Assembly: GCF_053078305.1 (NCBI RefSeq)
Contig: NZ_CP166879.1
Direction: 5' to 3' (one strand)
DNA length: 64,000 bases
Positions 30,093 to 46,466 of this stretch are shown here, in pieces. The first letter of the stretch is position 1; each line of letters begins with the position of its first letter. A program made the position numbers and the translations under genes. The notes beneath the pieces are model-generated. The model saw only the letters and a program-made list of their open reading frames with translations, was not told the origin of the DNA and ran no database searches.

Positions 30093-30102
30093 GAGGTGAA
30101 TC

Positions 30103-30351
30103 ATGGCAACAGATAACCGCTCACTGATGATCTGTGCCCATCAGAAGGCATTCAGTCTTGCAACACAGTTACCTCCTGAAACCATAAAAGTGTGTCGTGA
30201 GTTGACTGAACTCTGCATTGCCGGGGAAATCTCCCTGAAACAACTGCATTCGCTGCTGGCAGAGGCTGTCACTGATGAATTGAGCAGCGTGGACGTGATG
30301 ACTGAAGAGCTTGAGTCCCGAATCAGGGGCATTCTGACAGGTAAAGCATGA
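30103..30351 (+). CDS. hypothetical protein, paralog of gp27 C-terminal region
   Basis: AVTDELSSVDVMTEELESRIRGILTGKA parallels gp27 end AVTDELRGVDGMSEQIEFRIRQMLLGKA. Confidence 0.4.
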   Translation: MATDNRSLMICAHQKAFSLATQLPPETIKVCRELTELCIAGEISLKQLHSLLAEAVTDELSSVDVMTEELESRIRGILTGKA

Positions 30352-32015
30352 TGAGCAAAGCCAAAGAAACGTCTCCTTCACTGATGCAAATGACGCCTCC
30401 CCGCAAAATTGATCTGGCCGGTGAAAAAGCCCTGCTGGGCGTGGATGTGCCGGACAGCCTTGATTTACCCGGTGATATGCCGGTGTTTCTGGATTATCAG
30501 GCCCGCTGGTTTGAGGATGAAAGTCAGGTCTGCATCGCGGAAAAATCCCGACGCACCGGGCTGACCTGGGCGGAAGCCGGGCGTAACGTCATTACCGCCG
30601 CAAAGCCTAAGCGTCGTGGTGGCCGTAATGTGTTTTATGTGGGGTCAAAGCAGGAGATGGCGCTGGAATATATTTCTGCCTGCGCCCTGTTCTCCCGTGC
30701 CTTTAACCAGCTGGCAGATGCTGATGTGTATGAGCAGACCTTCTGGGATCGGAATAAAAAAGAAGAAATTCTGACCTACATGATCCGCTTTCCGAACAGT
30801 GGATTCAAAATTCAGGCACTGTCTTCCCGTCCGTCAAACCTGCGCGGCCTTCAGGGGGATGTGGTGATTGATGAAGCCGCGTTCCACGAGTCACTGGATG
30901 AGCTTCTCAAGGCGGCAATGGCGCTCACCATGTGGGGCGCGCGCGTGCGTATTATCTCCACGCATAACGGCGTCGATAATCTGTTTAATCAGTACATTCA
31001 GGAAGCCCGCGAGGGGCGCAAGGATTACAGCGTCCACCGCATAACCCTGGATGATGCCATTGCGGACGGGCTGTACCGTCGTATCTGTTATGTCACCGGC
31101 CGCGAATGGTCACCGGAAAGCGAGCAGAAGTGGCGTGATGATCTCTACAAAAACGCCCCGACCCGTGAGGATGCCGACGAGGAATACGGCTGTATCCCGA
31201 AAAAATCCGGCGGTGCCTATATTCCTCACGCGCTTATTGAAATGGCGATGCTCCGCGACATCCCGATTCTGACGTTTGAAGCCCCGGACGACTTCATCAG
31301 CCGTGCCGCATGGCTGCGTGAATCGGAGGTTTTAACCTGGTGTGAAGAACATTTAAAACCGCTTTTAGAGGCGTTAAATCCCCGTTCCCGCTTCAGCTTC
31401 GGGGAAGACTTTGCCCGCACCGGTGACCTCTCCTGCTTTGTGCTGCTGGAAATCACTGAATCCCTGGCAAAACGCGAGGTGTTTCGCGTGGAGCTGCGCA
31501 ACCTGCCGTATGCCCAGCAGGAGCAGGTGATGATGTACATCCTGACCCGCGTTCCGGCGCTGGTCGGTGCGGCGTTCGACGCCACCGGTAACGGCGGCTA
31601 TCTGGCCGAAGCCGCGCTGCTGGCCTTTGGCCCGGACATCATCGACTGCGTGATGTTATCGCCGAAGTGGTACGGCGAGTGGATGCCAAAACTGAAGGCC
31701 GAGTTTGAGGATCAGAATATCCTCGTCGCCCGCCATCAGACCACGCTTGATGATTTGCGCCATGTGAAGGTGGTGAACGGTATCCCGCAAATCGACAAGG
31801 GGCGTACGAAGGACCAGAACGCAACGGCTGTGAACGCCCGCCGCCATGGCGATTTTGCCGTGGCGCTCTGTATGGCAAACCGGGCGTCGTACATGGAGGG
31901 CTTCATCCTGGATGAATCAGCCTGTCAGGCGCTGCCGGAGCGGTCGCGGGCCATGGAGGGCGGTTATCGTGATGACGATGAGGCATATCATGAATTTGAT
32001 CGGGGGTGCTGGTAG
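30348..32015 (+). CDS. terminase large subunit (Mu gp28-like)
   Basis: 555 aa; ATPase region then nuclease region, position before portal. Confidence 0.8.
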   Translation: MMSKAKETSPSLMQMTPPRKIDLAGEKALLGVDVPDSLDLPGDMPVFLDYQARWFEDESQVCIAEKSRRTGLTWAEAGRNVITAAKPKRRGGRNVFYVGSKQEMALEYISACALFSRAFNQLADADVYEQTFWDRNKKEEILTYMIRFPNSGFKIQALSSRPSNLRGLQGDVVIDEAAFHESLDELLKAAMALTMWGARVRIISTHNGVDNLFNQYIQEAREGRKDYSVHRITLDDAIADGLYRRICYVTGREWSPESEQKWRDDLYKNAPTREDADEEYGCIPKKSGGAYIPHALIEMAMLRDIPILTFEAPDDFISRAAWLRESEVLTWCEEHLKPLLEALNPRSRFSFGEDFARTGDLSCFVLLEITESLAKREVFRVELRNLPYAQQEQVMMYILTRVPALVGAAFDATGNGGYLAEAALLAFGPDIIDCVMLSPKWYGEWMPKLKAEFEDQNILVARHQTTLDDLRHVKVVNGIPQIDKGRTKDQNATAVNARRHGDFAVALCMANRASYMEGFILDESACQALPERSRAMEGGYRDDDEAYHEFDRGCW

Positions 32016-33604
32016 TGGGACGTATAATTGATCTTGACGGAAAACCTTTCTCCTTTGACCCGGAGATGCAGAGTGCCGCGCTGGATATTCCGCAGATTGC
32101 CAGCCGTTATATTGAACATCCGGCCTCGGGTATCACCCCGAACCGGGCGGCGCAGTGCCTTCGCGGGGCTGAACGTGGCGATCTGATTGCCCAGTCCGAT
32201 CTGGCCGCTGACATTGAAGAAAAGGATACCCACCTTTTTGCAGAGCTGGGCAAGCGACGTCTTGCCATTCAGGGGGTGCCATGGAGTATTGAGCCGCCAC
32301 CGAACGCCAGCGCGAATGAGAAAAAGGACGCGGAAATGCTCGACGAATATCTGCATTCCGCCGACTGGTTTGATGCCATGCTGTTTGATGCCACCGATGC
32401 CATCCTGAAGGGCTATTCCTGCATGGAGATTGAGCACGGGATGCTCGGTAAAATGCACATCATCCGCGCCATCCGCTGGCGTGACAGCGGGCATTTCTGC
32501 CTTAACCCGGATGATTTGAGCGAACTGCGGCTGCGTGACGGCAGCCATGCCGGGGTGGCGTTTCAGCCCTTTGGCTGGATAGTGCATCAGTCGCGTTCAC
32601 GCACTGGCTACGGTGGTGCGACGGGGCTTGTCAGAACGCTTATCTGGCCGTTCATTTTCAAAAACTATTCCGTGCGCGATCTGGCTGAATTTCTGGAGGT
32701 GTACGGCCTGCCGATGAAGGTCGGGAAATACCCGTCCGGGGCAACACCGGAGCAGAAAAGCGCCCTGATGCGGGCGGTGATGGATATCGGGCGACGTACA
32801 GGCGGGATCATCCCTGCCGGGATGTCGCTGGAGTTTCAGGCAGCCGCGAACGGTCAGGCCGATCCGTTTGAAACCATGATTTCGTGGGGGGAGCGTTCCA
32901 TCTCCAAAGCTATCCTCGGCGGCACGCTGACCACGGAAGCCGGAGACAAGGGCGCGCGTTCGCTGGGTGAAGTGCATAACGAGGTGCGCCGGGAAATCAG
33001 GGATTCTGATTTACGTCAGCTGGCCGCCACGCTGAACCGCGATCTGGTGTATCCGCTGTATGCCCTGAACACCGCCCACGCCATTGATATCCGTCGCCTG
33101 CCGCGTATCTGTTTCCAGACCAAAGAGCCGGGGGATATCACCAAAATCACCAGTGCGGTGATGCAGCTCAGTACGGGGATGGATATTCCAGATCCCTGGG
33201 TACGGGAGCAGACCGGTATTCCACAGCCAGCCCCCGGTGAAGCCATCTTCCGTGTCCGGCAGAGCAGTAATGAACCCGCGCAGATCAACAGGGAAACACC
33301 GCCGGAAAAACAGGAAAAGACAGAGCAGACGGCGCTGTCAGCCCGAGTGCCGGAAGCGAAAAGCAGCCCCCGTGATGAACTGGACGACATGGGGGATGCG
33401 GTGCCTGCCCGCCGGTTACAGGAGGCCATCGACCCGCTACTGGAGCCGGTCATTGATGCCATCAGAACGCGGGGGCTGGCGGATGCGCTGGCAGACCTGC
33501 CTGCCCTTTACCGTGAAATGGATGATTCCCGCCTGATGACGCTGCTCAGTGATGCCATGTTTGCTGCGGAAATGAAGGGGATGCTGGATGGCTCAGGGGA
33601 TTGA
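32006..33604 (+). CDS. portal protein (Mu gp29-like)
   Basis: 532 aa after TerL. Confidence 0.75.
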   Translation: MLVVGRIIDLDGKPFSFDPEMQSAALDIPQIASRYIEHPASGITPNRAAQCLRGAERGDLIAQSDLAADIEEKDTHLFAELGKRRLAIQGVPWSIEPPPNASANEKKDAEMLDEYLHSADWFDAMLFDATDAILKGYSCMEIEHGMLGKMHIIRAIRWRDSGHFCLNPDDLSELRLRDGSHAGVAFQPFGWIVHQSRSRTGYGGATGLVRTLIWPFIFKNYSVRDLAEFLEVYGLPMKVGKYPSGATPEQKSALMRAVMDIGRRTGGIIPAGMSLEFQAAANGQADPFETMISWGERSISKAILGGTLTTEAGDKGARSLGEVHNEVRREIRDSDLRQLAATLNRDLVYPLYALNTAHAIDIRRLPRICFQTKEPGDITKITSAVMQLSTGMDIPDPWVREQTGIPQPAPGEAIFRVRQSSNEPAQINRETPPEKQEKTEQTALSARVPEAKSSPRDELDDMGDAVPARRLQEAIDPLLEPVIDAIRTRGLADALADLPALYREMDDSRLMTLLSDAMFAAEMKGMLDGSGD

Positions 33605-34913
33605 TTTAGGTTATGCCGCCACGCTTCCCTCAAAAGAGGCGGTGGCATACTTCCGCGCCAAAGGGGCGCATATCAGCTGGAACTGGTTCGAAACAGACGC
33701 GGATGTTCATGCCCGTTCATTCACGGCGGCAAAAGTGGCACGCCTGGACGTACTGACCACACTACAGGCGGAAGTGCAGCGTGCTGTTGATGAGGGGATT
33801 TCACAGAAAGCATTTATCCGCACACTGACACCCCGCCTGCAAAAGCTGGGATGGTGGGGAAAGCAGATTGTGGTGGACAGTGCCGGTAACGCGGAAGAAG
33901 TGCAGCTGGGCAGCCCCCGCCGTCTGGCGCTGATTTACAACGTGAACACCCGCGTGGCTTACAATGCCGGGCGTTACACGCAGATGATGAACAACACGGA
34001 CACGCATCCGTTCTGGCAGTATGTAGCGGTGATGGACAGCCGCACCCGCCCGGCGCATTCCGCCCTTAACGGGCTGGTATTCCGCTATGACGATCCGTTC
34101 TGGAATACACACTACCCACCCAATGGCTGGAACTGCCGCTGCCGTGTCCGGCCATTGTCTCAGGCCCGTCTGGATGCAATGGGGTTATCCGTTTCATCCG
34201 GTCAGGATCATCTTTCCACCCGCAATGTTGAGGCTGGCGTGGATAAGCAGACCGGAGAAGTCAGAGAAATGCCGGTGACCACATATTCAGATGGCACCAG
34301 AACCATGACACCGGATGTGGGCTGGTCATATAACCCCGGTTCGGCGGCGTTCGGCACAGACCAGGCGCTGATCCGCAAGCTGATCGAAGTGAAAAGCCCG
34401 GCGTTACGGGAAATGGTGGTTCAGGAGATGAACAACAGCCCGGAGCGGCAGCTGGCGTTCCGCATCTGGGCAAAAAACATCATGAAAACCCGGCGAGGCG
34501 GTAACGATATCCGCACGCTGGGCTTTATGACCGAAAGTATTGCGCAGGCGGTGGAAAGCCGGACGGGAACGCCACCGGCCCGCCTGCTGGCGATGAGCGG
34601 TAAAAATGTGCTCCATGCGGACAGCGTGAAACATCAGAATGACGGTATCGCCCTGACGCCGGAGGATTTCGCGCAGCTTCCCGCCATGCTGGCTTCCCCC
34701 GATGCCGTGCTGTGGGATCATGTCCATCAGAACCTGCTTTACATCACTGAAACCCGTGACGGAACGGCAAAGATTGCCGTCAATGCGCCTTATGGTGTGA
34801 AGCGCCAGCCGGATAAGCTGGATGTGGTAATTAATGCTTACCGGGTAAATAAATTTGATATTGAAAAAGCAATAGAGGGCGGAAAGCTGGAACTACTGGA
34901 AGGTAAATTGTAA
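33588..34913 (+). CDS. head morphogenesis protein, Mu F-like
   Basis: 441 aa; NGWNCRCRV motif typical of F-like minor head proteins. Confidence 0.7.
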   Translation: MAQGIDLGYAATLPSKEAVAYFRAKGAHISWNWFETDADVHARSFTAAKVARLDVLTTLQAEVQRAVDEGISQKAFIRTLTPRLQKLGWWGKQIVVDSAGNAEEVQLGSPRRLALIYNVNTRVAYNAGRYTQMMNNTDTHPFWQYVAVMDSRTRPAHSALNGLVFRYDDPFWNTHYPPNGWNCRCRVRPLSQARLDAMGLSVSSGQDHLSTRNVEAGVDKQTGEVREMPVTTYSDGTRTMTPDVGWSYNPGSAAFGTDQALIRKLIEVKSPALREMVVQEMNNSPERQLAFRIWAKNIMKTRRGGNDIRTLGFMTESIAQAVESRTGTPPARLLAMSGKNVLHADSVKHQNDGIALTPEDFAQLPAMLASPDAVLWDHVHQNLLYITETRDGTAKIAVNAPYGVKRQPDKLDVVINAYRVNKFDIEKAIEGGKLELLEGKL

Positions 34914-35031
34914 GCCGGTGACGGGGGTCGAACCCGCATAAACATATGACCCCTGAGGGTTTATGCCGCTTTACCAGTTAAGAGTACACCGGCCTGTATT
35001 TATTTTAATCAGATAGTTTTAAGGAGGCAAC

Positions 35032-35505
35032 ATGTCATCCATCGATGCAGCCGTGGTGGTGGACGTTGCGCGTCTCCAGCGGGTCTTTGCCCGGCTTCAG
35101 TTTGTGGGTGGTGGAAAAGACCTGGCCCGCAGTGTGGCGGCGAGTCTTCTGTCATCGTCAGAAATGGCGTTTGAACAGGAAAAAGAGCCGGACGGCGAAC
35201 GCTGGCATGACTGGTCAGATCCTTACCGCAAGTGGCGTACCCGTAAGGGATACATGCCCGGCAAAATCCTGACGCTGAACGGCGATCTGGCCCGACGCCT
35301 GACCACGGATTATGGCGACACCTGGGCGCTGATTGGATCAAATGAGCCTTATGCGGCCATTCATCAGTGGGGTGGCCTGCCCGGTATGCCACCGGGACCG
35401 GCGGCCATTGGTGCACGTCCGTATATGGGCTTTGATCAGGTGGCAGAGCAGGAGATCATGGACGAAATCAGAAAACGCTTTAAAAAGGCCACAGAAACGC
35501 CTTAA
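35032..35505 (+). CDS. virion morphogenesis protein (Mu G-like)
   Basis: 157 aa, position between F and protease. Confidence 0.6.
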   Translation: MSSIDAAVVVDVARLQRVFARLQFVGGGKDLARSVAASLLSSSEMAFEQEKEPDGERWHDWSDPYRKWRTRKGYMPGKILTLNGDLARRLTTDYGDTWALIGSNEPYAAIHQWGGLPGMPPGPAAIGARPYMGFDQVAEQEIMDEIRKRFKKATETP

Positions 35506-35681
35506 TTGTTTAAGGTATGCAAATGCATTACCTTACCCCCTTCAGGCGCGTGTCGTGATTTTCTAACCTGTATTTAACGGGCTTTAAAATCTGCGTGAAG
35601 CGCCTTTGTATTTTTCCCCTGGAAGCACTTCCTGAAATCCCGCAAAACCCGCCCTGAAAATTCCCGGCTTATGCTGCCGGA

Positions 35682-36806
35682 ATGAAGACGAAAAACACGC
35701 CCAAACTTGCTTATGCCATTCTGAATGCCATCAGCCTGTCCGCAGACGGGGACGGTGACTGGTGTCAGATCATGCCAGCCGGTCGGGTAAAGGCCCGTGA
35801 CGGTCGCCCGGAAAAACCGGCTGAAGGCTGGCTGATTAACCGTGCGACCGTTGAGCGCATGGTATCCCGGGTTGTGGCGCTCAATCAGCCGGTAAAAATT
35901 GACTACAACCACCAGACCCTGATTAAGGGGCATCAGGCACCGGCTGCCGGTTTTGTGATGGCCTCACCGGAGAATTTTCGCTTCAGTGAAGAGCGTGGCT
36001 TCGAGGTGCGCCCGAAGTGGAATCCTCCGGCCCTTGAACATCTGCGTAATAACGAATTCCCCTGGTTTTCACCGGTGATTGGCTATGACGAGAGCACCGG
36101 CGAACCTGTCGAACTTCGGATGCTGGCTATTACCGGTGACCCCGGTCTGACCGGCATGAATCCTGTCGCCGCGCTGTCGGCGGATGACCTTTATAACGCC
36201 TTAAACCCTCCTTTAAAGGATACCTCCATGAATGAGCAATTACGCCAGTTGCTGACGGCGCTCGGTCTGACCGTGGCTGACGGTGACGAATTTACGCCGG
36301 AGCTGGGCACGGCAGCGCTGTCTGCCCTCACCGGGATCAAAACCCGTGCGGATGCACACGACAACCTGAAAACACAGGTTGCCAGCCTGTCGGCAGAGCT
36401 GGAAACCGCAAAAGGCACACCGGCTGGCGGCAGTATTGATCTGACGAAATACGTGCCTGTTGAAACGTATAACGCCCTGCGTACCGAATACGTTGCGCTG
36501 TCGGCGCAGCACGGCAGCACCACGCTGGAGCAGGTGCTGGACAAGGCTGAATCCGAAGGGCGCATCTTCAAAAGCGAACGCGGCTATCTGGAACAACTGG
36601 GCGGGCAGATTGGCGTGGCGGCACTTTCTGCACAGCTTGACGCCCGCCAGCCGGTTGCGGCCCTGACCGGCCTTCAGACCGACACCGTGACCGTGCCGGA
36701 TAAAAAGACTGCCACCGCTGTGCTGTCGGCTGAAGATATCGCGGCCGCCAAACTGCTGGGTAAAACCGAAGCCGAGTTCCTGAAAATGAAAGAGGAAATG
36801 CAATAA
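35682..36806 (+). CDS. head protease/scaffold (Mu I/Z-like)
   Basis: 374 aa directly upstream of major head gene. Confidence 0.7.
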   Translation: MKTKNTPKLAYAILNAISLSADGDGDWCQIMPAGRVKARDGRPEKPAEGWLINRATVERMVSRVVALNQPVKIDYNHQTLIKGHQAPAAGFVMASPENFRFSEERGFEVRPKWNPPALEHLRNNEFPWFSPVIGYDESTGEPVELRMLAITGDPGLTGMNPVAALSADDLYNALNPPLKDTSMNEQLRQLLTALGLTVADGDEFTPELGTAALSALTGIKTRADAHDNLKTQVASLSAELETAKGTPAGGSIDLTKYVPVETYNALRTEYVALSAQHGSTTLEQVLDKAESEGRIFKSERGYLEQLGGQIGVAALSAQLDARQPVAALTGLQTDTVTVPDKKTATAVLSAEDIAAAKLLGKTEAEFLKMKEEMQ

Positions 36807-37753
36807 TGCCTACCCCGATTACACCGGCGATGATCACCGCCCTGATGACGGGCTACCGTTCTGATTTTCAGGCCGGGATGTCCATGGCCCCGTCGCAGTA
36901 CAAAAAAATTGCGATGACCGTGCCCTCCACATCGAAATCCAACACCTACGGCTGGCTGGGGCATGCGCCTCATTTTCGTGAGTGGATTGGTTCTCGTGTG
37001 ATCCAGAAAATGAAAGCGCACGGTTATTCCATTGTAAACAAGACCTGGGAAGATACCGTCCCTGTTAATCGTGATGATTTTGAGGACGATAATCTCGGTA
37101 TTTACTCGCCTTTATTTCAGGAGCTTGGTCGTGCCGCTGCTGTTCAGCCGGATGAGCTTGTATTTGCTGCTCTGCGTGATGGTCTGAAAAGTGCGTGTTA
37201 CGACGGTCAGAACTTCTTTGATACCGAACACCCCGTCTACCCAAATGTGGATGGTACCGGTGATGTGGCGCTGGTCAGCAACATGTTTGTGGCAAAAACC
37301 GGCTCTGTCGGTGCACAGGCAGATTACAGCGGACCGGCCTGGTATCTGCTCGACTGCTCCCGTGCAATAAAACCCATCATCTATCAGAGCCGCCGCAAGG
37401 TTGAACTGGTTGCACAGACAAAAATTGATGAAGGTCGCGCATTCACTGATAACGAGTTTGTGTTCGGTGCATCCGTTCGTCACAACGTGGGCTACGGCTT
37501 CTGGCAGATGGCCTACATGATGCAGTCACCGCTGACGCTGGATGCGCTGTGGCATGGCTGGTCCGCCATGCGTGAGTTTACCGCTGACGGTGGCCGCAAA
37601 CTCGGCATCAAACCCACCCATATTGTTGTCCCCACCTCGCTGGAAAAACAGGCGGTGCAGCTGCTGGAGCGTGAACTGTTCGCAGACGGAAACGCAACCG
37701 TCTCTAACGAGATGAAGGGCAAGCTGGAGCTGGTTGTCGCGGATTATCTGTAA
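36806..37753 (+). CDS. major head subunit (Mu T-like)
   Basis: 315 aa; position and pattern. Confidence 0.75.
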   Translation: MPTPITPAMITALMTGYRSDFQAGMSMAPSQYKKIAMTVPSTSKSNTYGWLGHAPHFREWIGSRVIQKMKAHGYSIVNKTWEDTVPVNRDDFEDDNLGIYSPLFQELGRAAAVQPDELVFAALRDGLKSACYDGQNFFDTEHPVYPNVDGTGDVALVSNMFVAKTGSVGAQADYSGPAWYLLDCSRAIKPIIYQSRRKVELVAQTKIDEGRAFTDNEFVFGASVRHNVGYGFWQMAYMMQSPLTLDALWHGWSAMREFTADGGRKLGIKPTHIVVPTSLEKQAVQLLERELFADGNATVSNEMKGKLELVVADYL

Positions 37754-37796
37754 ATGGTGAGCCGGGCTTACGGCCCGGCCCCTGCGGAGGGCAAAT

Positions 37797-38228
37797 ATGA
37801 ATGAACATCACACTGTGGCAGCAACAGATGATTCAGGTCTTCAGATCAGTGGTGACAATTCTGTCACGGTGCTGGCAGAAGTGCGTTGCAGTCGTTCGGC
37901 GTTTCGTCGTGCGGGGTTCCTGTTCACGCGTGGACGTCAGCAGGTTGAGGTCACCCCGGAGCAGCTTGCCCGACTGGAGGCGGAGCCATGCCTCACTGTG
38001 CGAATACTACAGACGTCTGCTGATGATGCGGGGAGCGTGGCGGGTGTGGTTCATGCAGTGGCCTGTACAGATTTAGCCGAAGCCGAAGCCGAAGCCGAAG
38101 CCGAAGCCGAAGCCGAAGCCGAAGCCGAAGCCGAAGCCGAAGCCGAAGCCGAAGCCGAAGCCGGACAGGATGCTCCCCGGAAAAAGACCGGTAACAAAGC
38201 GAAACAGGCGAAAAAGGCCCGCGCATGA
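37797..38228 (+). CDS. hypothetical protein with (Ala-Glu)14 repeat and basic C-terminus
   Basis: 143 aa; in-frame hexanucleotide repeat. Confidence 0.5.
   Translation: MNEHHTVAATDDSGLQISGDNSVTVLAEVRCSRSAFRRAGFLFTRGRQQVEVTPEQLARLEAEPCLTVRILQTSADDAGSVAGVVHAVACTDLAEAEAEAEAEAEAEAEAEAEAEAEAEAEAGQDAPRKKTGNKAKQAKKARA
38076..38159. repeat. perfect tandem hexanucleotide repeat (GCCGAA)14
   Basis: 14 uninterrupted units plus one imperfect unit, in frame within ORF 37797-38228. Confidence 0.9.
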
Positions 38229-38644
38229 ATTACGCCACTGAAACCGATATGCGGGCGCGTTACCGCGAGGATTTGCTCAGGCCGTTACTGGCTGTGCCCC
38301 GTTCGGATGAGCCGGACACGCGCAAGCTGAACCGGGCGCTGACAGATGCGTCAGCCCTTATCGACAGCTATCTGTCCGCCCGTTACACGCTGCCGCTGGA
38401 GGTTATTCCGGCCGTTCTTGTTCAGCACTGTTGCGCGATTGCCTTTTATTACCTGTGCGATCAGCGAGCCTCCGATCAGGCGCGTGACCGTTACCGTGAA
38501 GCGCTGGCCTGGCTGAAAGATGTCATGAACGGCAATGTGCCGGTCGGTGTGGATACGAACGGTGCGGCCCCTGAATCCGGGGATTTACCACAGGTTCTGT
38601 CTGATGCAGCGGTATTCGGGCGCAACCAGAAGGGCTTCATATGA
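38225..38644 (+). CDS. Mu gp36-like head completion protein
   Basis: 139 aa, synteny. Confidence 0.55.
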   Translation: MNYATETDMRARYREDLLRPLLAVPRSDEPDTRKLNRALTDASALIDSYLSARYTLPLEVIPAVLVQHCCAIAFYYLCDQRASDQARDRYREALAWLKDVMNGNVPVGVDTNGAAPESGDLPQVLSDAAVFGRNQKGFI

Positions 38645-39201
38645 TTACGGAAACCGAACAGGCATACATCGCCCGTATCCGTGAGTATTTCGGGAATGAA
38701 CTGGTGTCTGTTGACACGCATCCCGGCGACTGGAGCGACAGCGTACTGCGCACCATGCTGATTAACGCCCCGGCGATCTACGTTGCCTGGCTGGGTGCCG
38801 GTGAAGGCCGTACCCGTGGTCGTCTGGTCAGTCACTGGGTGTTCTACGTCATCGGCGACATGCTCAACGGGCGTGAGGCCAGCCGTCCCGGACTGTATCA
38901 GATTGTGGCCCGGCTGATTGCCGTGCTTAACGGCTTCAGAACAGAAAAAACCTCACCGCTTTACTTTGAAAAGGCGGTCAACGGTTACACCGAAACCCAG
39001 GCGGACAGTGGTGCGGTGATGTATGCGCTTTATTTCTCCTGCGAGGAAATGATCGCGCCACTGACGGATATCAGCTCGCTGGACGACTTCCTGCGTCATT
39101 ACGAAACCTTTGTGGAGCCGCCCGGTACGCCGCCGTTTGAGGCACATATTGATTTGCCGGGGAACACGACAACGGCGGTCGAACCGCCGGAGGAACTGTA
39201 A
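38641..39201 (+). CDS. Mu gp37-like protein
   Basis: 186 aa, synteny. Confidence 0.55.
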   Translation: MITETEQAYIARIREYFGNELVSVDTHPGDWSDSVLRTMLINAPAIYVAWLGAGEGRTRGRLVSHWVFYVIGDMLNGREASRPGLYQIVARLIAVLNGFRTEKTSPLYFEKAVNGYTETQADSGAVMYALYFSCEEMIAPLTDISSLDDFLRHYETFVEPPGTPPFEAHIDLPGNTTTAVEPPEEL

Positions 39202-39447
39202 ATGAAAACCATCTTTATCAAACCCGCGCCGGGACGCCTGATTCGTGATCCCGACACAATGCGCCCGCTGGCACAGGAGGGGGAGGAAAAGCCCTTCACG
39301 CCGTTCTGGTGTCGGCGTCTTGATGACGGCGATGTCATTCAGGCTGAAAAAGCCGCTGAAGAGGCTCCGGCTGTATCTGCGGATGCAACGACTGCGACAG
39401 AAAAACCGGTCGCCCAACCGGCATCCGATAAGGAGAAACCGCAATGA
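39202..39447 (+). CDS. hypothetical protein
   Basis: 81-aa ORF upstream of sheath. Confidence 0.4.
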   Translation: MKTIFIKPAPGRLIRDPDTMRPLAQEGEEKPFTPFWCRRLDDGDVIQAEKAAEEAPAVSADATTATEKPVAQPASDKEKPQ

Positions 39448-40946
39448 TTAATTTTGACGGGATCGGTAATGACCGCCGTATACCGCTGATTGAGGTTGAG
39501 TTTAATAACTCCATGGCTGTCACCGGCACCCCGGCACAGCGTCAGTGTGTACTGCTGTTTGGTCAGGCGAGAATGAAAGAGAATGCCGTGGACGGTACCG
39601 GTGTTCTGGATGTTCCGGTCAGGATCACCCGTGCGTCTCAGGCAACAGAACTCTGGGGGCGCGGCTCCATGATTGCCCTGATGGTGGCGGAATTTATCGC
39701 CATCAATCCTGATGCTGAACTGTATGCCATTGCTCAGGGGAATGGCACCGGACAGGCAACGGCTGCGGCCATGAATCTGACCGGAACGGTCACCCGTGAC
39801 GGGATTGTTTATGCCTGCGTGGGGGGGCGGCGTTATACACTCCCGGCACCAAAAGGTAAGAAAGGCAAAGAACTGACCGACGAGCTGGCCGCGCTGATCA
39901 ATGCCGATCCTGACGCGCCCTTCACGGCCTCCTCTGGTGCAGGAAGTGGTGATAATGGCGCAGGTCTGAAAGGGTCTCTGGGGATCACCGCCCGCTTTAC
40001 CGGTGAATGCTCCGTGCATGATGTGCGCCTGAACTATCACGACGGGGAAGCAACCCCGGAAGGAATACAGGTCGCTATAGCCTATCCGAAACAAAAAGCG
40101 GCTAACCCGGATATCACCCGAAGCGTGGCGGGTATGGGCGATCGCCAGTACAACTATGTCGTCATGCCCTATAAGGATGATGCAAACCTGAAAATCATCA
40201 GTGATGAGCTTCTGAAACGCTGGGGACCGGCCAAAATGTCTGACGGCGTGCTGTGGCTGGCACATACCGGCACGTTTGGTGAGGTGCAGGCATTCGGGGC
40301 AAAACGCAATGATTTTCTGGCGACCTGCACATCCATTCCCAAAGCCCCTGAACCGGATTACCTCTGGGCCGCGGCGGTCTGCGCCACCTGTGCACCCTCT
40401 CTGGGAGCAGATCCTGCGCGTCCGCTTCAGACGCTGGCGCTTCCGTCACGCATGGCCCCGGCTCCGGCCGATCGTCTGACGCGTGAAGAGCGTAACAGTC
40501 TGCTGTGGGGAGGGATTGCCTCGGTCAGTGTGGCTGCCGGTGATGTGGTTCAGATCGAACGTCAGGTGACCATGTATCGCCAGAACGTGTACGGCGAAAG
40601 TGATCCCAGCTATCTGGATGTGGAAACCATCTACACCCTCTCCTGGCTGCGTTATTCCCTGCGTACTTTTATCACACAACGTTTTCCGCGCCATAAACTG
40701 GCTGATGACGGGACGCCCGTTCGTGCCGGTCAGAATATCGTGACGCCGGAGATCATGAAGCTTCAGTTAATTTCGCTGGGTGAAGAGTGGGTGGAACTCG
40801 GGCTGGTCGAAAATCTGGACACCTTTAAAAAGAATCTGCTTGTGGAGCGTAATGCGTCAGATCGAAACCGTCTTGACGTGTTATGCACGCCGGATCTGGT
40901 TAACCAGTTCCGCTTCCTGGCAGCACAGATCCGTTTCATTTTGTGA
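39444..40946 (+). CDS. contractile tail sheath protein (Mu L-like)
   Basis: 500 aa, followed by tube gene. Confidence 0.8.
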   Translation: MINFDGIGNDRRIPLIEVEFNNSMAVTGTPAQRQCVLLFGQARMKENAVDGTGVLDVPVRITRASQATELWGRGSMIALMVAEFIAINPDAELYAIAQGNGTGQATAAAMNLTGTVTRDGIVYACVGGRRYTLPAPKGKKGKELTDELAALINADPDAPFTASSGAGSGDNGAGLKGSLGITARFTGECSVHDVRLNYHDGEATPEGIQVAIAYPKQKAANPDITRSVAGMGDRQYNYVVMPYKDDANLKIISDELLKRWGPAKMSDGVLWLAHTGTFGEVQAFGAKRNDFLATCTSIPKAPEPDYLWAAAVCATCAPSLGADPARPLQTLALPSRMAPAPADRLTREERNSLLWGGIASVSVAAGDVVQIERQVTMYRQNVYGESDPSYLDVETIYTLSWLRYSLRTFITQRFPRHKLADDGTPVRAGQNIVTPEIMKLQLISLGEEWVELGLVENLDTFKKNLLVERNASDRNRLDVLCTPDLVNQFRFLAAQIRFIL

Positions 40947-40954
40947 GGTAACGC

Positions 40955-41320
40955 ATGAGCGGAAAACAGTATCAGGGCACGGCCACTATCCGTGTGAACG
41001 GTCAGGAATACGAGACGCTTGAGGGGGCTACATTTTCTCCGTCAGGTTTTGAACGTGAAGTGGTGAAAGGCGCGAAAGTCTATGGTTACCGCCAGAAACC
41101 ACGTGAAGCGACGCTGGACTGCAAATTTCCGGCAGGCGGAGAAGGCTCACCAGCCGCTGATGAAATCAACAACTGGACTGCGGTCACCATCGAGTTTGTG
41201 GCGGATACCGGCGAAGTCCACATGATGACGAAGGCCTGGAGCAGTGAACCGGCCTCGCTTGACGGTGGCGGGGAGATCTCCGTGAAGTTCGCCAGCGCCT
41301 CCAGTACCCGTGTTCAGTGA
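40955..41320 (+). CDS. tail tube protein (Mu M-like)
   Basis: 121 aa. Confidence 0.75.
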   Translation: MSGKQYQGTATIRVNGQEYETLEGATFSPSGFEREVVKGAKVYGYRQKPREATLDCKFPAGGEGSPAADEINNWTAVTIEFVADTGEVHMMTKAWSSEPASLDGGGEISVKFASASSTRVQ

Positions 41321-41811
41321 TCAGGAAAAATAAAATGACCACACGTAAGAAAAAAACGGCAGTTTCCGATGCCGCCGTGATGGAGGCAATCCGGGAAGCA
41401 CTTGAGGGGGCTGATCCACGCACTGCCGGGCTGACAGAGCAACTGGCAAAGGGATATGTGGATCTGCTTGATGGTCTGCCGTTTGGTGAGACCCGTGAAT
41501 ATCGTGTCACGTTCCGGGAACTGACTGCGAAAGACAGTATTGACGCAGAAGCAGAAGCCGAGCGCGTGGTGGAGACAAACAATGGCCCGATGCTGATAGC
41601 GTCTCCGTCGTTACGCGGTGTTGCACTGCTGCGCCGTCAGATTGCCGCAGTGGGAGACATTGAGGGTCCGTTGTCACCCCGTCAGATTGGGCGGTTAAGC
41701 GAGCGCGATCTCTCCCGCCTGATGGCAGCGGTCAGCCTGCTGGATACCGCGCTTGCCGGAAAGCTGGCTGCTGACCGGGGGCGATCAGGCGCAGTGTCGG
41801 GATCAGATTGA
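41317..41811 (+). CDS. tail assembly chaperone
   Basis: 164 aa before tape measure; overlapping alternative-frame ORF 41753-41935. Confidence 0.55.
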   Translation: MIRKNKMTTRKKKTAVSDAAVMEAIREALEGADPRTAGLTEQLAKGYVDLLDGLPFGETREYRVTFRELTAKDSIDAEAEAERVVETNNGPMLIASPSLRGVALLRRQIAAVGDIEGPLSPRQIGRLSERDLSRLMAAVSLLDTALAGKLAADRGRSGAVSGSD

Positions 41812-41937
41812 AGAAGCGGCAATTATCCTGGGGATGGTGACAAAAAGCGGCCCGGAATGGGCGCTTAACCTCCCCCTGTCGCAACTTTACCGGCACTGCC
41901 GACAGACAGAAAAAATCATCAGAACGAAGCAGTAAGT

Positions 41938-44013
41938 ATGGCCCGAAATCTCAGAGCATCTCTGATAGTTGATTTGCTCGGCAATATCTCAGCCAAATCC
42001 CGCCAGTGGTCTCAGGAGCTGGGGGCATTCTCACGCTCCGGCCAGGCGGGGCTGGGTGGTCTGGGAAATGCTGCCCGCCGTGCCGGGCAGGAAACAGATG
42101 TACTCGGAAGCAGGATGCAGCGCACGCTGGCCGGGGTGCGGGGCAGTATCCGCCATGTCACTTCTGATTTTGACCGTCTTCAGGGCAGTATTACCGGCAC
42201 CATCGGGCGGATCAGCAATCTTTACGGAATGCTGGCCGGTGGTGCTGCTGTATATGGCTTTAACCGGGGATTTATTCGCCCGGCAGCGGAGATGGAAACC
42301 TATATGATTCGCCTGAACTCCCTTTACAAAGGGGATCGGGCGAAAACGGATGATGTCCGCAGGTGGGCAATACAGAATGCGAAGGAAACCACCTGGGGGC
42401 TGGCTGGCGTCATGCAGGAATATACGTCCAGTCTGGGCTTTGGTATGAGTGACAGGGAGGCCCGAAATTTTGTCACCATGCTTCAGGATCAGGGTGCCGT
42501 GGGCGGCTGGTCACTGTCCGATGCACAGGGGGCATCCCTGCAACTGAAACAGATGTATGCAAGAGGCAGTATTCAGGCGGCGGATGCAAATATTCTTGCC
42601 ACCTACGGCATTAATGCCTACCGCGTGCTGGCTGATCGTCTGGGTGTGGACCAGAAAGTGGTCAGAAAACTTGGTGAAAAAGGGCTGCTTGGGCCGGACA
42701 GTATTCGCCTGTTATTTCAGACGCTGGCGGAACAGGCCAGGGGAGCACAAAAGGACGCAATGAATTCCTGGAGTGGCCTGACGGCCATGATGGGTGACGT
42801 CTGGGACCAGTTTGCCCGGGATGTGATGGACAGTGGGCCATTTGAAAAACTGAAGGGTAATCTCAGGGGATTTCTTTCATGGGTTGACAGTGCCAAATCT
42901 GATGGCAGTTACCATTCCCTGGCGGAAAGCACGGCATCAGCCATGAACCAGGGCTTTGAGTATGCCCGTGATGCAGTGACAGGGTTTTATCAGGCGATCA
43001 GAAAGGTACGCGACACGCTTCAGGCTCTGCGGGATGCGGGCTATGGTGATGCGCTGGATCGCATTGGTCAGGGGGCACAGACTGCCGCGAAATACCTGCT
43101 GTACATGTATCTCGCCACCCGTGCCCTGAAAATGGCGCGGGCTGTCGGAACGGGGATTATACGTCCGGGTGCTGCATTGCTGGGATACGGATTATCAGCG
43201 GCGGCCTTCCTGACTTCACCTTTCCGGCGCTCTCCTCCGGCCGGAACACCACCAGGCACATCTCAGGGACGAGGGCAACGTTTTATGAACTTTCTTACCG
43301 GGGTAAATCCGGCAGCCGTTCAGCCAGTGCTTGTAACAAACTGGCCCGCAGGAGGACTGTCCGGCACCGGCGCGACCGATACATCCTCAGGCGGACGTCA
43401 GGGACGGGGCCGCAGGAAACGCGGACCGGGGCGCGGAAGACCGGTCACGCCTCCCCTGCCACCGTCCCCTGTACCACCGTCGCCCTCTTCTGGTGGGTCA
43501 GGGTTCTGGGGGCGCATGATGGGGCGCGCCGGTGGGTTGCTTTCGTCTGCCGGTAACCGCATGGGACTGGGGCGTTTCTCCGGCTTTTTCCGCAGTGCCG
43601 GTGGACTGGCTGGACGGCTGGGTGGCGGTGCCCTGTGGGCTGGCGCGATGGCAGCCCCGGTTCTGCTGGATGGCAGCGCCAGTATCACAGACAAGGGAGA
43701 AGCGGTCGGCTCTCTTGCAGGCAGTATTGCCGGTGGTGCGCTGGGGGCGGCAGCCGGACCTGTGGGGATTGCCATTGGTTCTACGGTGGGCAGCTATCTC
43801 GGTAACTATCTGGGGGGGTGGCTGACTGAAGCCTGGCAGAAATTACGGGGCAGTGATAATGAAAGCAGTGGACAGGCGGTACAAAAAGCCTCTGCCCGTG
43901 TGGAGCTGGTTGCCCCGGAAGGGTGGCAGGCTCGCAGTATTGATATTGATGACACGTCCGGTCACGGACTGGATGTGAATGTCTGGAACGGAGGGAATTA
44001 TGGCCTCTGGTGA
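41938..44013 (+). CDS. tail tape measure protein
   Basis: 691 aa, Gly-rich C-terminal segments. Confidence 0.75.
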   Translation: MARNLRASLIVDLLGNISAKSRQWSQELGAFSRSGQAGLGGLGNAARRAGQETDVLGSRMQRTLAGVRGSIRHVTSDFDRLQGSITGTIGRISNLYGMLAGGAAVYGFNRGFIRPAAEMETYMIRLNSLYKGDRAKTDDVRRWAIQNAKETTWGLAGVMQEYTSSLGFGMSDREARNFVTMLQDQGAVGGWSLSDAQGASLQLKQMYARGSIQAADANILATYGINAYRVLADRLGVDQKVVRKLGEKGLLGPDSIRLLFQTLAEQARGAQKDAMNSWSGLTAMMGDVWDQFARDVMDSGPFEKLKGNLRGFLSWVDSAKSDGSYHSLAESTASAMNQGFEYARDAVTGFYQAIRKVRDTLQALRDAGYGDALDRIGQGAQTAAKYLLYMYLATRALKMARAVGTGIIRPGAALLGYGLSAAAFLTSPFRRSPPAGTPPGTSQGRGQRFMNFLTGVNPAAVQPVLVTNWPAGGLSGTGATDTSSGGRQGRGRRKRGPGRGRPVTPPLPPSPVPPSPSSGGSGFWGRMMGRAGGLLSSAGNRMGLGRFSGFFRSAGGLAGRLGGGALWAGAMAAPVLLDGSASITDKGEAVGSLAGSIAGGALGAAAGPVGIAIGSTVGSYLGNYLGGWLTEAWQKLRGSDNESSGQAVQKASARVELVAPEGWQARSIDIDDTSGHGLDVNVWNGGNYGLW

Positions 44014-45349
44014 CGGTCGTGGTGCGTTCCGTGGTGTGCCGTTCCTCGTCTGGCGTGAGCAGCGCGAACGTGGCGGGCGAAACATTGTCCGTCGGGAATA
44101 TCCGTTACGGGAAACCGGTGGAGCAGACGATCTGGGACCTAAACTGGCTGAATTTACGTTCAGTGTACTTGTGATGGGGGATGATGTTCAGACGCAGCGA
44201 AATCGTCTGCGTGATGCCCTTCGTGCTCCCGGTGCCGGGGAGCTGCTTCACCCGGATTACGGCACGTTAAATGTGCTGATAAACAGCTTTGAAAGTCGTT
44301 ATAACGCCGCTGAACAGGGCGTGGTTGAGTTCACCATTAATGTCACGCCGGTAAGTGATGATACCGCACCTGCTGTCACACAGGACACGGCCGCCATTCT
44401 GGAGCAGAAGAGTACCACCGCGCTCGGGCAGGTTTTTGAAACCCTGGAAGCGGGCTGGACGGTGATTTCTGACGGAATGCACGATGTCCAGGCAATGACC
44501 GAAACCATCAGCGATAAGGTGTCCGCCCTGGAAAATGCCGTTTCCGGCATGGGGATTGTGCAGGATATCAGTGCCTTTACTGCCACGTTCACGGCGCTGA
44601 AAGGGAATGCCACGGCATTACTGACAGCACCTTCCCGCATGGCCTCATCTTTTGCGGGGCTTTTCAGTGCCCTGATCACCCTGCCATCGCTGCCGTCACT
44701 GTCTTCAGGAGGCCTGAATACCCGGCCCGGTGGCAGTATCGGCCGGACGACATCCGCCGTCTATCAGGGAATGCCGCAACTGTACAGGACATTATCTTCC
44801 CTGCGTTACGTGCTGGATGAGCAGGATAATCCGCAGACTCTCATCGGTCTGACACCGGCAGCACAAAAGAATATTCGTCTGATACGGGCGGTAATGCAGA
44901 GTGCTGCCGTGGTGGCCCAGGCACAGACCGTGGGAAAACTGCTGGATCAGGTTCTCAGTCAGGAAACCCTGCCGGATAGTGACGCAGCCCACCGTACCTG
45001 GCCTGTCTGGCTGGAAAGTTCAGTCGATCTTCAGCGCATTAACCGTGACTTAAGCGAAGCGCTCGAACGGCAGGTGATGACACTGTCCGGGCAGGGGTAT
45101 ACCGCCACGGCGCTGACGCTTCGTGATGCCAGACTGGCACTGACAGAGGATCTGAATACACGGGGAGTTCAGCTACCCGGTGCAACAGTAGTGACTGTAC
45201 GTACCACCGAGCCTGCACTGGTGACCCTGTACCGTGCCACCGGGAACAGTACCGGCTGGCAACGTTTTGTGCGCCGTAACGGTATTGTTGATCCGCTGTT
45301 CATTCCCGGAGGCCATTCAGTGGAGGTGATTAGTGAGCAGCAGGGTTGA
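43979..45349 (+). CDS. DNA circularization protein N-like
   Basis: 456 aa, synteny after tape measure. Confidence 0.65.
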   Translation: MSGTEGIMASGDGRGAFRGVPFLVWREQRERGGRNIVRREYPLRETGGADDLGPKLAEFTFSVLVMGDDVQTQRNRLRDALRAPGAGELLHPDYGTLNVLINSFESRYNAAEQGVVEFTINVTPVSDDTAPAVTQDTAAILEQKSTTALGQVFETLEAGWTVISDGMHDVQAMTETISDKVSALENAVSGMGIVQDISAFTATFTALKGNATALLTAPSRMASSFAGLFSALITLPSLPSLSSGGLNTRPGGSIGRTTSAVYQGMPQLYRTLSSLRYVLDEQDNPQTLIGLTPAAQKNIRLIRAVMQSAAVVAQAQTVGKLLDQVLSQETLPDSDAAHRTWPVWLESSVDLQRINRDLSEALERQVMTLSGQGYTATALTLRDARLALTEDLNTRGVQLPGATVVTVRTTEPALVTLYRATGNSTGWQRFVRRNGIVDPLFIPGGHSVEVISEQQG

Positions 45350-46466
45350 ACTGTATCTGGGCGGTGAGATTTTTTCCGGCTGGCTGACGGTGAGTGTTCG
45401 TCGCTCTCTTGAACATCTGGCGGGCTCCTTTGAACTGGGGGTAATGATGCCCGGTGTACGCCTTCCGTCATCCGTCCGTGCCGGTCAGTCTCTGGAATTG
45501 CGCATTGACGGTCAGCCTGTGATCACCGGCTGGCTGGATCAGGTCCGGCAGCGCATCAGCGCCACGCGTTTTCAGATCACGCTCAGCGGACGGGATAAAA
45601 CCGGTGACCTGGTGGACTGTTCAGCCATTCATCCGGGCAGCCAGTGGAGGAACCGTACGCTGGAGCACATTGCTTCAGATTTGTGTGCTCCGTTCGGGGT
45701 CACGGTGCGCTGGCAGGTAAATGATGCAACGGCAGCCCGGCCCTTTTCCACCTTCACACTGGAAAACTCAGAAACCGTGGCAGATGCGCTGACACGGGCC
45801 GCGAGACACAGAGGCGTCCTGGTAACCAGTAATGCCGCCGGTGAACTGGTTTTCACTCAGGCCGGCAGTCAGCGTGGCGACACGCTGACGCTGGGCGAAA
45901 ATCTGCTGGATTTGGATCACAACGTGGATCACCGTCTGCGCCACAGTGAATACCGTGTACGGGGGCACGGGCGTGGTGGTGGTCATGCCGGGGATGCACT
46001 GACAGCCGGAACGCTGGCCGCACCCGTTGGTACGGTGACAGACAGTGCCATCCACCGTTACAGACCGAAAATTGTGCTGGCGGATCATGCTGTTGATGCA
46101 GACGGTGCACGCCAGAGGGCTGTCCGGGAAATGCGCCGGGCGGTTGCCCGCTCTGTGCGCCTGACAGCCACCGTGCGGCACTGGTTTCGGGAGAACGGCC
46201 AGTTGTGGGATATCAACCTGCTGACGGCTGTCACGGCTCCCCGCACCGGAGTGGAAGAGCGTGATCTTCTTGTCTGTCAGGTGGAGTTTTCGCTGGATGC
46301 AAATCACGGCGAAACCACCCGTCTGATTCTGGCACCCCGTGACGGCTTTATTGTTCCGGCAGAGCCGGACAGCCGGGGAAACAGCGGAAGCGGAAATGCG
46401 GGTGATGTGGACGCCTTCGTGCGGGCACAGATGAAAAAACAGGGGATTAAATTCAATGATGAATGA
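45333..46466 (+). CDS. baseplate protein (Mu P-like)
   Basis: 377 aa. Confidence 0.65.
   Translation: MSSRVELYLGGEIFSGWLTVSVRRSLEHLAGSFELGVMMPGVRLPSSVRAGQSLELRIDGQPVITGWLDQVRQRISATRFQITLSGRDKTGDLVDCSAIHPGSQWRNRTLEHIASDLCAPFGVTVRWQVNDATAARPFSTFTLENSETVADALTRAARHRGVLVTSNAAGELVFTQAGSQRGDTLTLGENLLDLDHNVDHRLRHSEYRVRGHGRGGGHAGDALTAGTLAAPVGTVTDSAIHRYRPKIVLADHAVDADGARQRAVREMRRAVARSVRLTATVRHWFRENGQLWDINLLTAVTAPRTGVEERDLLVCQVEFSLDANHGETTRLILAPRDGFIVPAEPDSRGNSGSGNAGDVDAFVRAQMKKQGIKFNDE

What the first reader, a model, noticed from the sequence alone, without database searches (positions are those of the whole stretch)
38076..38165. Perfect (GCCGAA)14 microsatellite encoding an (Ala-Glu)14 linker in a head-region protein
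Fourteen uninterrupted hexamer units inside an ORF between the major head gene and head completion genes. Such repeats are prone to slipped-strand changes that would alter linker length in frame, giving a built-in length-variable acidic spacer. It could also be an assembly collapse hotspot.
Basis: seen in the sequence. Interest (0 to 1): 0.45.

Follow-up and report, generated by a model that had tools for sequence, protein, structure and literature searches.

The report
Hypervariable Ala-Glu repeat in Mu-like prophage
A perfect 14-copy six-base repeat sits in a small head-module gene of a Mu-like E. coli prophage; related strains carry from 1 to 20 copies, so it is an ordinary fast-mutating in-frame tandem repeat that lengthens a floppy acidic stretch of a protein of unknown role.

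Summary
(GCCGAA)14 lies at 38076-38159, followed by a degenerate unit GCCGGA. It encodes (Ala-Glu)14 in a 143-aa ORF (37797-38228, + strand). This ORF is the homologue of phage Mu gp35 / Haemophilus HI1506 (Pfam FluMu_N). It lies between the major head gene gpT and the head-tail adaptor gp36 of an Sp18-like Mu-like prophage.

The locus is present in 227 of 5426 complete E. coli genomes. Copy number runs through every value from 1 to 17, plus 20; 13 alleles were read directly and the rest inferred from match length. Two cattle isolates are identical over 4.8 kb except for one repeat unit. Long arrays are pure, the frame is always kept, and draft assemblies often break inside the array.

AlphaFold predicts the tract to be disordered. 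It sits where relatives carry a variable low-complexity linker. This lineage, however, lacks the family's C-terminal three-helix domain, so the tract joins the conserved N-domain to a 22-residue basic tail.

Best reading: a slipped-strand VNTR tolerated in a disordered spacer. Nothing shows that the length is adaptive, and the protein's function is unknown. It is a new member of a known kind, of low to moderate interest.

The parts
38076..38159 (+). Perfect hexanucleotide array (GCCGAA)14 encoding (Ala-Glu)14, residues 94-121
38160..38165 (+). Degenerate 15th unit GCCGGA (Ala-Gly). Together with one GCCGAA it makes up the minimal n=1 allele and is the likely seed of the array.
   Evidence: (L009 n=1 allele: TTA GCC GAA GCC GGA)
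37797..38228 (+). CDS of the Mu gp35 / HI1506-family protein (143 aa). Its stop codon overlaps the gp36 start (ATGA).
37869..38015 (+). Conserved folded N-domain (residues 25-73, beta-beta-alpha-beta). The Pfam FluMu_N match covers residues 36-72.
   Evidence: 37.1 bits against a cut-off of 25.8; pLDDT 87-96; 2OUT, probability 0.98
38166..38225 (+). Basic C-terminal tail QDAPRKKTGNKAKQAKKARA, which stands in place of the family's three-helix C-domain
   Evidence: pLDDT below 50
38199..38218 (+). Second small in-frame repeat (GCGAAAAAG, 2.2 copies) in the tail. A 9-bp length difference (KAKQAKKARA versus KAEQARA or KAKQARA) separates strains.
37786..37791 (+). Shine-Dalgarno-like GGAGGG, 5 nt upstream of the ATG
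   Evidence: read directly
36806..37753 (+). Upstream neighbour: Mu-like major head subunit gpT
38225..38644 (+). Downstream neighbour: Mu gp36-family head-tail adaptor
16941..56279 (+). Extent of the Sp18-like Mu-like prophage that carries the locus, defined by BLAST against Sakai Sp18. The target-site duplication was not resolved.

Best explanation
The feature is a coding hexanucleotide VNTR (variable-number tandem repeat) in the gp35-family gene of an Sp18-like transposable Mu-like prophage of E. coli. Replication slippage (slipped-strand mispairing) on the pure GCCGAA array adds or removes whole units. Because the unit is 6 bp, the reading frame is always kept. The only product change is the length of an Ala-Glu tract, which adds one negative charge per unit. 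The tract lies in an intrinsically disordered segment between the conserved FluMu_N domain and a short Lys/Arg-rich tail. This is the position where the wider family has a low-complexity linker of variable length, so length changes are tolerated and accumulate. What is shown: the array, its frame, its extreme polymorphism, a single-unit difference between otherwise identical loci, the predicted disorder, and family membership through the N-domain. What is inferred: slippage as the mechanism, and near-neutrality of length. What is unknown: the role of the protein. By position, and by the DNA-binding-like modules attached to the N-domain in relatives, it is probably a head-module or connector accessory factor that contacts nucleic acid.
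For: The array is pure and in frame. The locus is present in 227 of 5426 complete E. coli genomes. Sequence-verified alleles have 1, 2, 7, 8, 9, 10, 13, 14, 16, 17 and 20 units, all pure when long. Match lengths in 101 genomes give every n from 1 to 17, plus 20, with a mode of 8, on both C-tail haplotypes. Strains 113 and 121 differ by one 6-bp gap and no mismatches over 4842 bp. Interrupted or derived arrays (AG, AV, AK, AT units) exist in the protein collection, as expected in a microsatellite life cycle. The window's exact 143-aa allele is absent from about 15 billion proteins. AlphaFold gives pLDDT 87-96 for residues 25-73, and pLDDT below 50 with no secondary structure for residues 79-135. 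Relatives have linkers of very different length and composition after the same N-domain. Gene order gpT - FluMu_N protein - gp36 is conserved in distant Mu-like phages. Sp18, with 8 units, is judged intact in PMC2669165. The same phage type occurs at up to 4 places per genome and inserted in Stx phages, so carriers appear to be active phages. Six-bp VNTRs of O157 mutate by whole units at 4e-5 to 2e-3 per generation, faster above about 13 units (PMC3777172).
Against: No mutation rate was measured at this locus. Single-strand DNA folding gives no slippage-stabilising hairpin; both strands fold less well than shuffles (z = +3.7 and +4.8), so nothing special promotes slippage beyond repeat purity. 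Neutrality is not proven: the allele distribution is unimodal around 8 units, which could reflect either mutation bias or weak selection. Most copy numbers are inferred from match length rather than read base by base. One record (831 bp) does not fit the length formula.
Confidence: 0.8

Rival explanations
1. Adaptive tunable spacer. The length and charge of the Ala-Glu tract set how far the basic tail reaches, or how strongly it binds DNA. Rapid slippage would then give the phage population heritable, reversible functional diversity.
For: Each unit adds one negative charge. The calculated net charge of the part after the N-domain goes from +6 (n=1) to -7 (n=14) and -13 (n=20), and the protein's pI falls from 8.6 to 4.5. 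An acidic tract beside a Lys/Arg tail could act as an intramolecular competitor. Relatives attach DNA-binding-like modules to the same N-domain: HhH (PF14520, E=1e-8), a basic tail after a coiled coil (P0097), and a three-helix domain. The allele distribution has a mode at 8 rather than being flat.
Against: Apparently intact prophages carry anything from 1 to 20 units. Arrays are pure at the DNA level with no synonymous variation, which points to mutation rather than protein-level selection. The 20 residues just before the repeat evolve fast (dN 0.21 against dS 0.065). No phenotype is known for Mu gp35, which was not resolved in the Mu virion (PMC11915804).
Confidence: 0.12
2. Symptom of gene decay. 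In this lineage gp35 has lost its C-terminal domain and is drifting, and the repeat expands because the gene no longer matters.
For: The family's C-terminal three-helix domain (present in Mu, Edwardsiella and others) is missing. dN/dS of the N-terminal 93 codons is 0.58-0.75 between diverged alleles, against 0.10 for gpT. Frameshifted variants are present in the collection (P0038, P0066).
Against: The ORF is intact and annotated as a CDS under every listed complete-genome match. The folded core (residues 25-73) has dN/dS of about 0.35 and still matches Pfam and Mu gp35. The ribosome-binding site and the ATGA overlap with gp36 are kept. Other family members also consist of the N-domain plus a short tail (P0097, P0103), so a short form is a normal variant of the family.
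Confidence: 0.12
3. Assembly artefact. The 14-unit array, or its length, was produced by mis-assembly.
For: Short-read contigs commonly end inside this repeat (three contigs end at the last base of the truncated gene; many 'partial' proteins). The exact allele is not seen elsewhere.
Against: The same pure array, at the same site and in the same frame, occurs in more than 200 complete genomes with 1-20 units. Eighty-four bases is shorter than ordinary reads. Flanks and frame are intact.
Confidence: 0.03
4. Phase-variable contingency locus that switches the gene on and off.
For: It is a simple-sequence repeat inside a coding region of a mobile element.
Against: The unit is 6 bp, so no length change can shift the frame. 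All verified alleles remain in frame.
Confidence: 0.01

Closest known systems
Phage Mu gp35 / Haemophilus FluMu gp35 (HI1506, PDB 2OUT), Pfam FluMu_N PF17891
   Same: The N-domain is homologous: Pfam 37.1 bits, 2OUT E=1e-4, Foldseek probability 0.98, and tblastn to Mu gene 35 at 51% over 41 aa, E=8e-5. The gene position between gpT and gp36 is the same. A non-globular segment follows the N-domain.
   Different: Mu gp35 and most relatives continue into a three-helix C-domain of about 45 residues (motif FTxxGxPKV...LG..vT...DAAl). The window protein instead has (AE)14 and a 22-residue basic tail. No tandem repeat is present in Mu gene 35.
Six-bp coding VNTRs of E. coli O157 used for MLVA typing (Vhec and O157-n loci)
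   Same: Short unit, whole-unit gains and losses, many alleles, differences between close isolates, and slipped-strand mispairing as the accepted mechanism (PMC3777172).
   Different: This locus sits on a transposable prophage that is present in only about 4% of complete genomes and sometimes in several copies. I found no mention of it in the MLVA papers I could search. Most of the primary MLVA papers are not in the held library, so I cannot say it was never catalogued.
Phage lambda gpFI (DNA-packaging chaperone)
Bacillus subtilis YqbF (PDB 2HJQ), skin/PBSX-like prophage protein
   Different: The scores are weak, there is no sequence similarity, it has no repeat, and its function is equally unknown.

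Membership tests
Mu gp35 / HI1506 family (Pfam FluMu_N) | FluMu_N domain above Pfam's gathering score | tested here: met
   37.1 bits against a cut-off of 25.8, residues 36-72. 2OUT E=1e-4. Mu gene 35 tblastn E=8e-5.
Mu gp35 / HI1506 family (Pfam FluMu_N) | Gene lies between the Mu-type major head gene (gpT) and the gp36 adaptor gene | tested here: met
   The same order is seen in distant metagenomic Mu-like phages.
Mu gp35 / HI1506 family (Pfam FluMu_N) | Two-domain architecture: N-domain, linker, three-helix C-domain | tested here: not met
   Only 22 residues follow the repeat, and gp36 starts at 38225. The C-domain motif is present in Mu, P0084, P0090, P0093, P0096, P0098, P0099 and P0102 but absent here. 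The protein is therefore filed as an N-domain-only variant of the family.
Bacterial VNTR / coding microsatellite | Head-to-tail copies of a short unit, far beyond chance | tested here: met
   14 perfect units, TRF score 178.
Bacterial VNTR / coding microsatellite | Copy number differs between strains at the same locus | tested here: met
   1-20 units.
Bacterial VNTR / coding microsatellite | Whole-unit change between otherwise identical sequences (recent stepwise mutation) | tested here: met
   Strain 113 (14 units) against strain 121 (13 units): 4842 bp, 0 mismatches, one 6-bp gap.
Bacterial VNTR / coding microsatellite | Elevated mutation rate per generation | not testable with these tools
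   This needs passage experiments or read-level data. Rates for comparable O157 loci are given in PMC3777172.
Phase-variable contingency locus | Repeat unit not a multiple of 3, so length changes switch the frame | tested here: not met
   The unit is 6 bp and all alleles are in frame.
Lambda gpFI-like packaging chaperone | Sequence or profile homology to gpFI | tested here: not met
Lambda gpFI-like packaging chaperone | Gene directly after the major capsid gene and before the head-tail joining gene | tested here: met
Lambda gpFI-like packaging chaperone | Not a virion component; stimulates terminase-prohead interaction | not testable with these tools
   Mu gp35 was not resolved in the Mu virion map (PMC11915804). 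That fits such a role but does not decide it.

The most novel reading that the evidence does not exclude
The Ala-Glu tract could be a rapidly mutable polyanionic spacer that works as a rheostat on a head-module accessory protein. By changing reach and net charge next to the Lys/Arg tail, it would tune, or auto-inhibit, DNA contact of a gpFI-like packaging or head-completion factor. Slippage during replicative transposition would then give each burst a mixture of variants.
Probability: 0.07. Interest if true: 0.6.

Novelty: new member of a known kind. Interest (0 to 1): 0.25.

Why it matters
In practice, this is a highly polymorphic marker (at least 18 length alleles) on a transposable prophage of Shiga-toxin-producing E. 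coli. It could help trace that phage. It also breaks short-read assemblies, so gene calls there are often truncated. Biologically, the natural series of 1-20 Ala-Glu units is a ready-made linker-length series for testing what the conserved but uncharacterised Mu gp35 family does. It also shows that this lineage functions, or at least persists and transposes, without the family's C-terminal domain. None of this is surprising to a specialist, because in-frame 6-bp VNTRs are common in E. coli O157 genomes.

Tried and rejected
1. Hairpin-assisted slippage. Single-strand DNA folds of both strands are weaker than shuffled controls, so this was rejected.
2. Homology to lambda gpFI. hhalign probability is 0.13%. 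The hexapeptide AGQDTP, shared between the n=1 allele and the gpFI linker, has only 13/18 identical bases. I treat it as coincidence.
4. Literature on HI1506. There were no hits in the held library, and the papers cited in the Mu record (PMID 29767456, 17400915) are not held. The statement that HI1506 has an unstructured linker of about 30 residues and two domains with basic patches rests on my memory of that paper.
5. Whether the locus is an established MLVA marker. Searches found nothing, which is inconclusive.
6. A wider view of the family. The profile search of the 5.8-billion collection returned mostly short or partial proteins and added little. NCBIfam has no model. PHROGs lists the family as unknown function.
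7. SuMu virion proteomics paper. It makes no mention of gp35.
8. Target-site duplication of the prophage. It could not be resolved cleanly from the junctions.
9. Copy number in different prophage copies within one genome. The search tool lists only the best place per record, so this was not done.

Full report
OBSERVATION

The window reads GCCGAA fourteen times without interruption at 38076-38159, followed by GCCGGA. Tandem Repeats Finder gives period 6, 14.8 copies, 100% matches and score 178. The next best array in the 64-kb window scores 59. No other array of a unit longer than 3 bp reaches four copies. The repeat is in frame in the + strand ORF 37797-38228 (143 aa) and encodes (Ala-Glu)14 at residues 94-121. 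The ORF has a GGAGGG ribosome-binding site 5 nt upstream, and its stop codon overlaps the start of the next gene (ATGA). The 77-aa ORF on the opposite strand (RLRLRL...) is just the mirror image of the repeat.

WHAT THE GENE IS

The neighbours are unambiguous Mu-type morphogenesis genes:
- virion morphogenesis protein, 35032-35505
- gpI protease/scaffold, 35682-36806
- gpT major head subunit, 36806-37753 (E=1e-117)
- gp36 adaptor, 38225-38644
- gp37 terminator, 38641-39201
- DUF2635, 39202-39447
- tail sheath, 39444-40946

The repeat-bearing protein matches Pfam FluMu_N (37.1 bits, cut-off 25.8). It also matches the NMR structure of Haemophilus HI1506, the FluMu gp35 protein (2OUT, E=1e-4). 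tblastn finds gene 35 of phage Mu itself (51% over 41 residues, E=8e-5). The current Mu record calls that gene a 'head-to-tail connector complex protein'. PHROGs lists the family as unknown function.

The whole element is an Sp18-like Mu-like prophage. BLAST against Sakai Sp18 aligns window 16941-56279 at about 97%, apart from the immunity end and a few cassettes. The orthologue in Sakai is ECs_4975.

COMPARISON ACROSS RELATIVES

Megablast of 37600-38450 finds the locus in 227 of 5426 complete E. coli genomes. There are 263 places, up to four per genome, and most are STEC. It also finds the locus in two Stx-phage records in which a Mu-like phage is inserted.

Thirteen alleles were read base by base:

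| Source | Units |
|---|---|
| window | 14 |
| LC727881 | 7 |
| LC727895 | 10 |
| Sakai | 8 |
| FHI_NMBU_11 | 9 |
| F1 E4 | 20 |
| FORC_028 | 16 |
| strain 113 | 14 |
| strain 121 | 13 |
| strain 110 | 1 |
| CFSAN027343 | 2 |
| JNEC-KY176 | 17 |
| FORC_029 (diverged allele) | 2 (AEAETV) |

Every array of 7 or more units is pure GCCGAA.

A second in-frame length difference of 9 bp in the C-terminal tail (KAKQAKKARA versus KAEQARA) explains the remaining length classes. The formula length = 851 - 6(14-n) - 9s reproduces all eleven full-length fetched alleles. Applied to 101 distinct genomes listed, it gives every n from 1 to 17, plus 20, with a mode of 8, on both tail haplotypes. One record (831 bp) does not fit. 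These inferred values count hexamer units and may include variant units.

Strains 113 and 121 are cattle isolates with nearly identical chromosomes. They are identical over 4842 bp except for one 6-bp gap in the array, which is the signature of a recent single-unit step. The protein collection also holds interrupted or derived arrays (AGAGAEAE, AEVEVEAE, AEAEAEAK, AEAEAEAEAGAGAGAG, AGAGAGAG). The window's exact allele is not among about 15 billion proteins.

ASSEMBLY BEHAVIOUR

Many database entries are 'partial' proteins that stop inside the AE run. For one of them, three independent contigs end exactly at the last base of the truncated gene. The repeat is therefore a contig-breaking site in short-read assemblies. 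The array itself is real, because it recurs in complete genomes. Whether this window has exactly 14 units cannot be checked without reads.

PROTEIN CONTEXT

An AlphaFold model built on a 17-sequence alignment gives a confident beta-beta-alpha-beta N-domain (residues 25-73, pLDDT 87-96). It gives no structure and pLDDT below 50 for residues 79-135, which covers the whole Ala-Glu tract and most of the tail.

An exhaustive HMMER search of 1.8 billion representatives found only 21 relatives at E<=1e-3. The small ones share the N-domain, then a low-complexity stretch rich in A, P, E, D, G and S that varies greatly in length. Most of them then have a C-domain of about 45 residues with the motif FTxxGxPKV...LG..vT...DAAl, as do Mu gp35 and an Edwardsiella homologue.

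The Sp18-like proteins lack that C-domain. After the repeat come 22 residues, AGQDAPRKKTGNKAKQAKKARA, and then gp36 starts. Other short forms exist: P0097 has a coiled coil plus a basic tail, and P0103 is the N-domain alone. P0104 carries a helix-hairpin-helix module plus two FluMu_N copies. In these distant phages the gene still sits between gpT and gp36. The N-domain is therefore the constant module, and the appended parts all look like nucleic-acid-binding pieces. That last point is an inference.

Each Ala-Glu unit adds one negative charge. The calculated pI falls from 8.6 (n=1) to 4.7 (n=14) and 4.5 (n=20).

CONSTRAINT

Between the window and the diverged FORC_029 allele, dN/dS is about 0.35 in the folded core. 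It is about 0.75 over the first 93 codons, and dN exceeds dS in the 20 residues before the repeat. For gpT, dN/dS is 0.10. The counts are small. The picture is a conserved small domain followed by a weakly constrained tail.

MECHANISM

I commit to slipped-strand mispairing on a pure hexamer array as the source of variation (inferred, about 0.95), and to the length changes being tolerated in a disordered spacer rather than selected (about 0.65-0.8).

Support for this reading:
- The arrays are pure.
- A complete allele series occurs on two haplotypes.
- One single-unit step separates two sister isolates.
- The frame is always preserved.
- The segment is predicted to be disordered and is variable across the family.
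- Carriers with very different n look intact and mobile. Sp18 is judged intact in PMC2669165, some genomes hold several copies, and the phage is found inserted into Stx phages.

Measured rates for comparable 6-bp VNTRs of O157 are 4e-5 to 2e-3 per generation, by whole units, and higher for alleles above about 13 units (PMC3777172). No hairpin explains the instability.

The likely seed is the n=1 form TTA GCC GAA GCC GGA, in which two adjacent hexamers already match at 5 of 6 bases.

FUNCTION OF THE PROTEIN

This is not established. Mu gp35 was listed as 'probably structural', possibly connector-related, but could not be resolved in the 3.3-3.8 A Mu virion maps, and the Mu capsid shows no cement protein (PMC11915804).

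Fold searches return only 2OUT (Foldseek probability 0.98) and weak matches:

gpFI is an attractive analogue. It has the same gene position, and it is a small protein with modules joined by an acidic flexible linker. There is no sequence relation (hhalign probability 0.13%), so I offer it only as 'may work like', not as membership.

RIVAL READINGS

- Adaptive tunable spacer: 0.12
- Symptom of gene decay after loss of the C-domain: 0.12
- Assembly artefact: 0.03
- Phase variation: excluded by the 6-bp unit

VERDICT

It is an ordinary kind of object, an in-frame hexanucleotide VNTR, in a new place: the spacer of the uncharacterised Mu gp35 family on a transposable STEC prophage. Novelty: new member of a known kind. 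Interest: about 0.25.

Noticed in passing
window 38199-38218: A second small in-frame tandem repeat (GCGAAAAAG, 2.2 copies) lies in the basic tail of the same protein. Strains carry either KAKQAKKARA or a form 9 bp shorter (KAEQARA or KAKQARA). The gene therefore has two independent length-variable sites.
   Followed up: partly
window 36806-37753 (gpT): The major head gene differs from Sakai Sp18 gpT at 117 of 948 bases (27 aa), concentrated in nt 120-720. gp36 differs at 2 bases and the gp35 N-region at 3. This is a mosaic, recombinant segment inside the capsid gene.
   Followed up: partly
window 1-16940 and 56280-64000: Both flanks of the Mu-like prophage are themselves prophage DNA (integrase, primase, terminase, portal, S49 peptidase and capsid on the left; tape measure, portal and S49 peptidase on the right). 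The Mu-like phage therefore appears to be inserted within or next to another prophage, as in the Stx-phage records LC727881 and LC727895.
   Followed up: partly
window 49655-51039: This tail-fibre segment is inverted relative to Sakai Sp18 (97% identity on the opposite strand). It lies next to the homologue of the Sp18 DNA invertase, so it is an invertible host-range segment caught in the other orientation.
   Followed up: no
window 17029-18369, and about 52865-54068 and 54358-54923: The left (immunity/repressor) end just inside the conserved 88-bp terminus, and cassettes near the right end, have no BLAST match to Sp18. These are different immunity and accessory modules in an otherwise 97%-identical phage.
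   Followed up: no
window 37761-37779: A G+C-rich hairpin (GCCGGGC TTACG GCCCGGC) without a T-run lies between gpT and the gp35-family gene. It is at the position where the Mu record annotates a predicted terminator. The simple terminator scan did not call it.
   Followed up: no
L009 (n=1 allele) and lambda FI, L017:1503-1898: The hexapeptide AGQDTP is shared by the linker of lambda gpFI and the n=1 allele of this protein. Both genes follow the capsid gene. The DNA is only 13/18 identical and the profiles do not match, so this is probably coincidence.
   Followed up: partly
proteins P0038 and P0066: These are frameshifted versions of the gene. In P0066 the repeat is read as KPKPKP and the frame is later restored. 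They are either sequencing errors or rare out-of-frame alleles caused by indels outside the hexamer register.
   Followed up: no
proteins P0091 (1815 aa), P0092, P0100 (1026 aa), P0101, P0104: Large proteins carry 2 to 9 tandem FluMu_N domains, and one has an N-terminal helix-hairpin-helix module. P0104 still sits between gpT and gp36 in a Mu-like phage. The small N-domain is a reusable module whose binding partner is unknown.
   Followed up: partly
window 4446-4454 and 21792-21800: Homopolymer runs G9 and A9 are the longest in the window. I did not examine them for coding context or frameshift potential.
   Followed up: no
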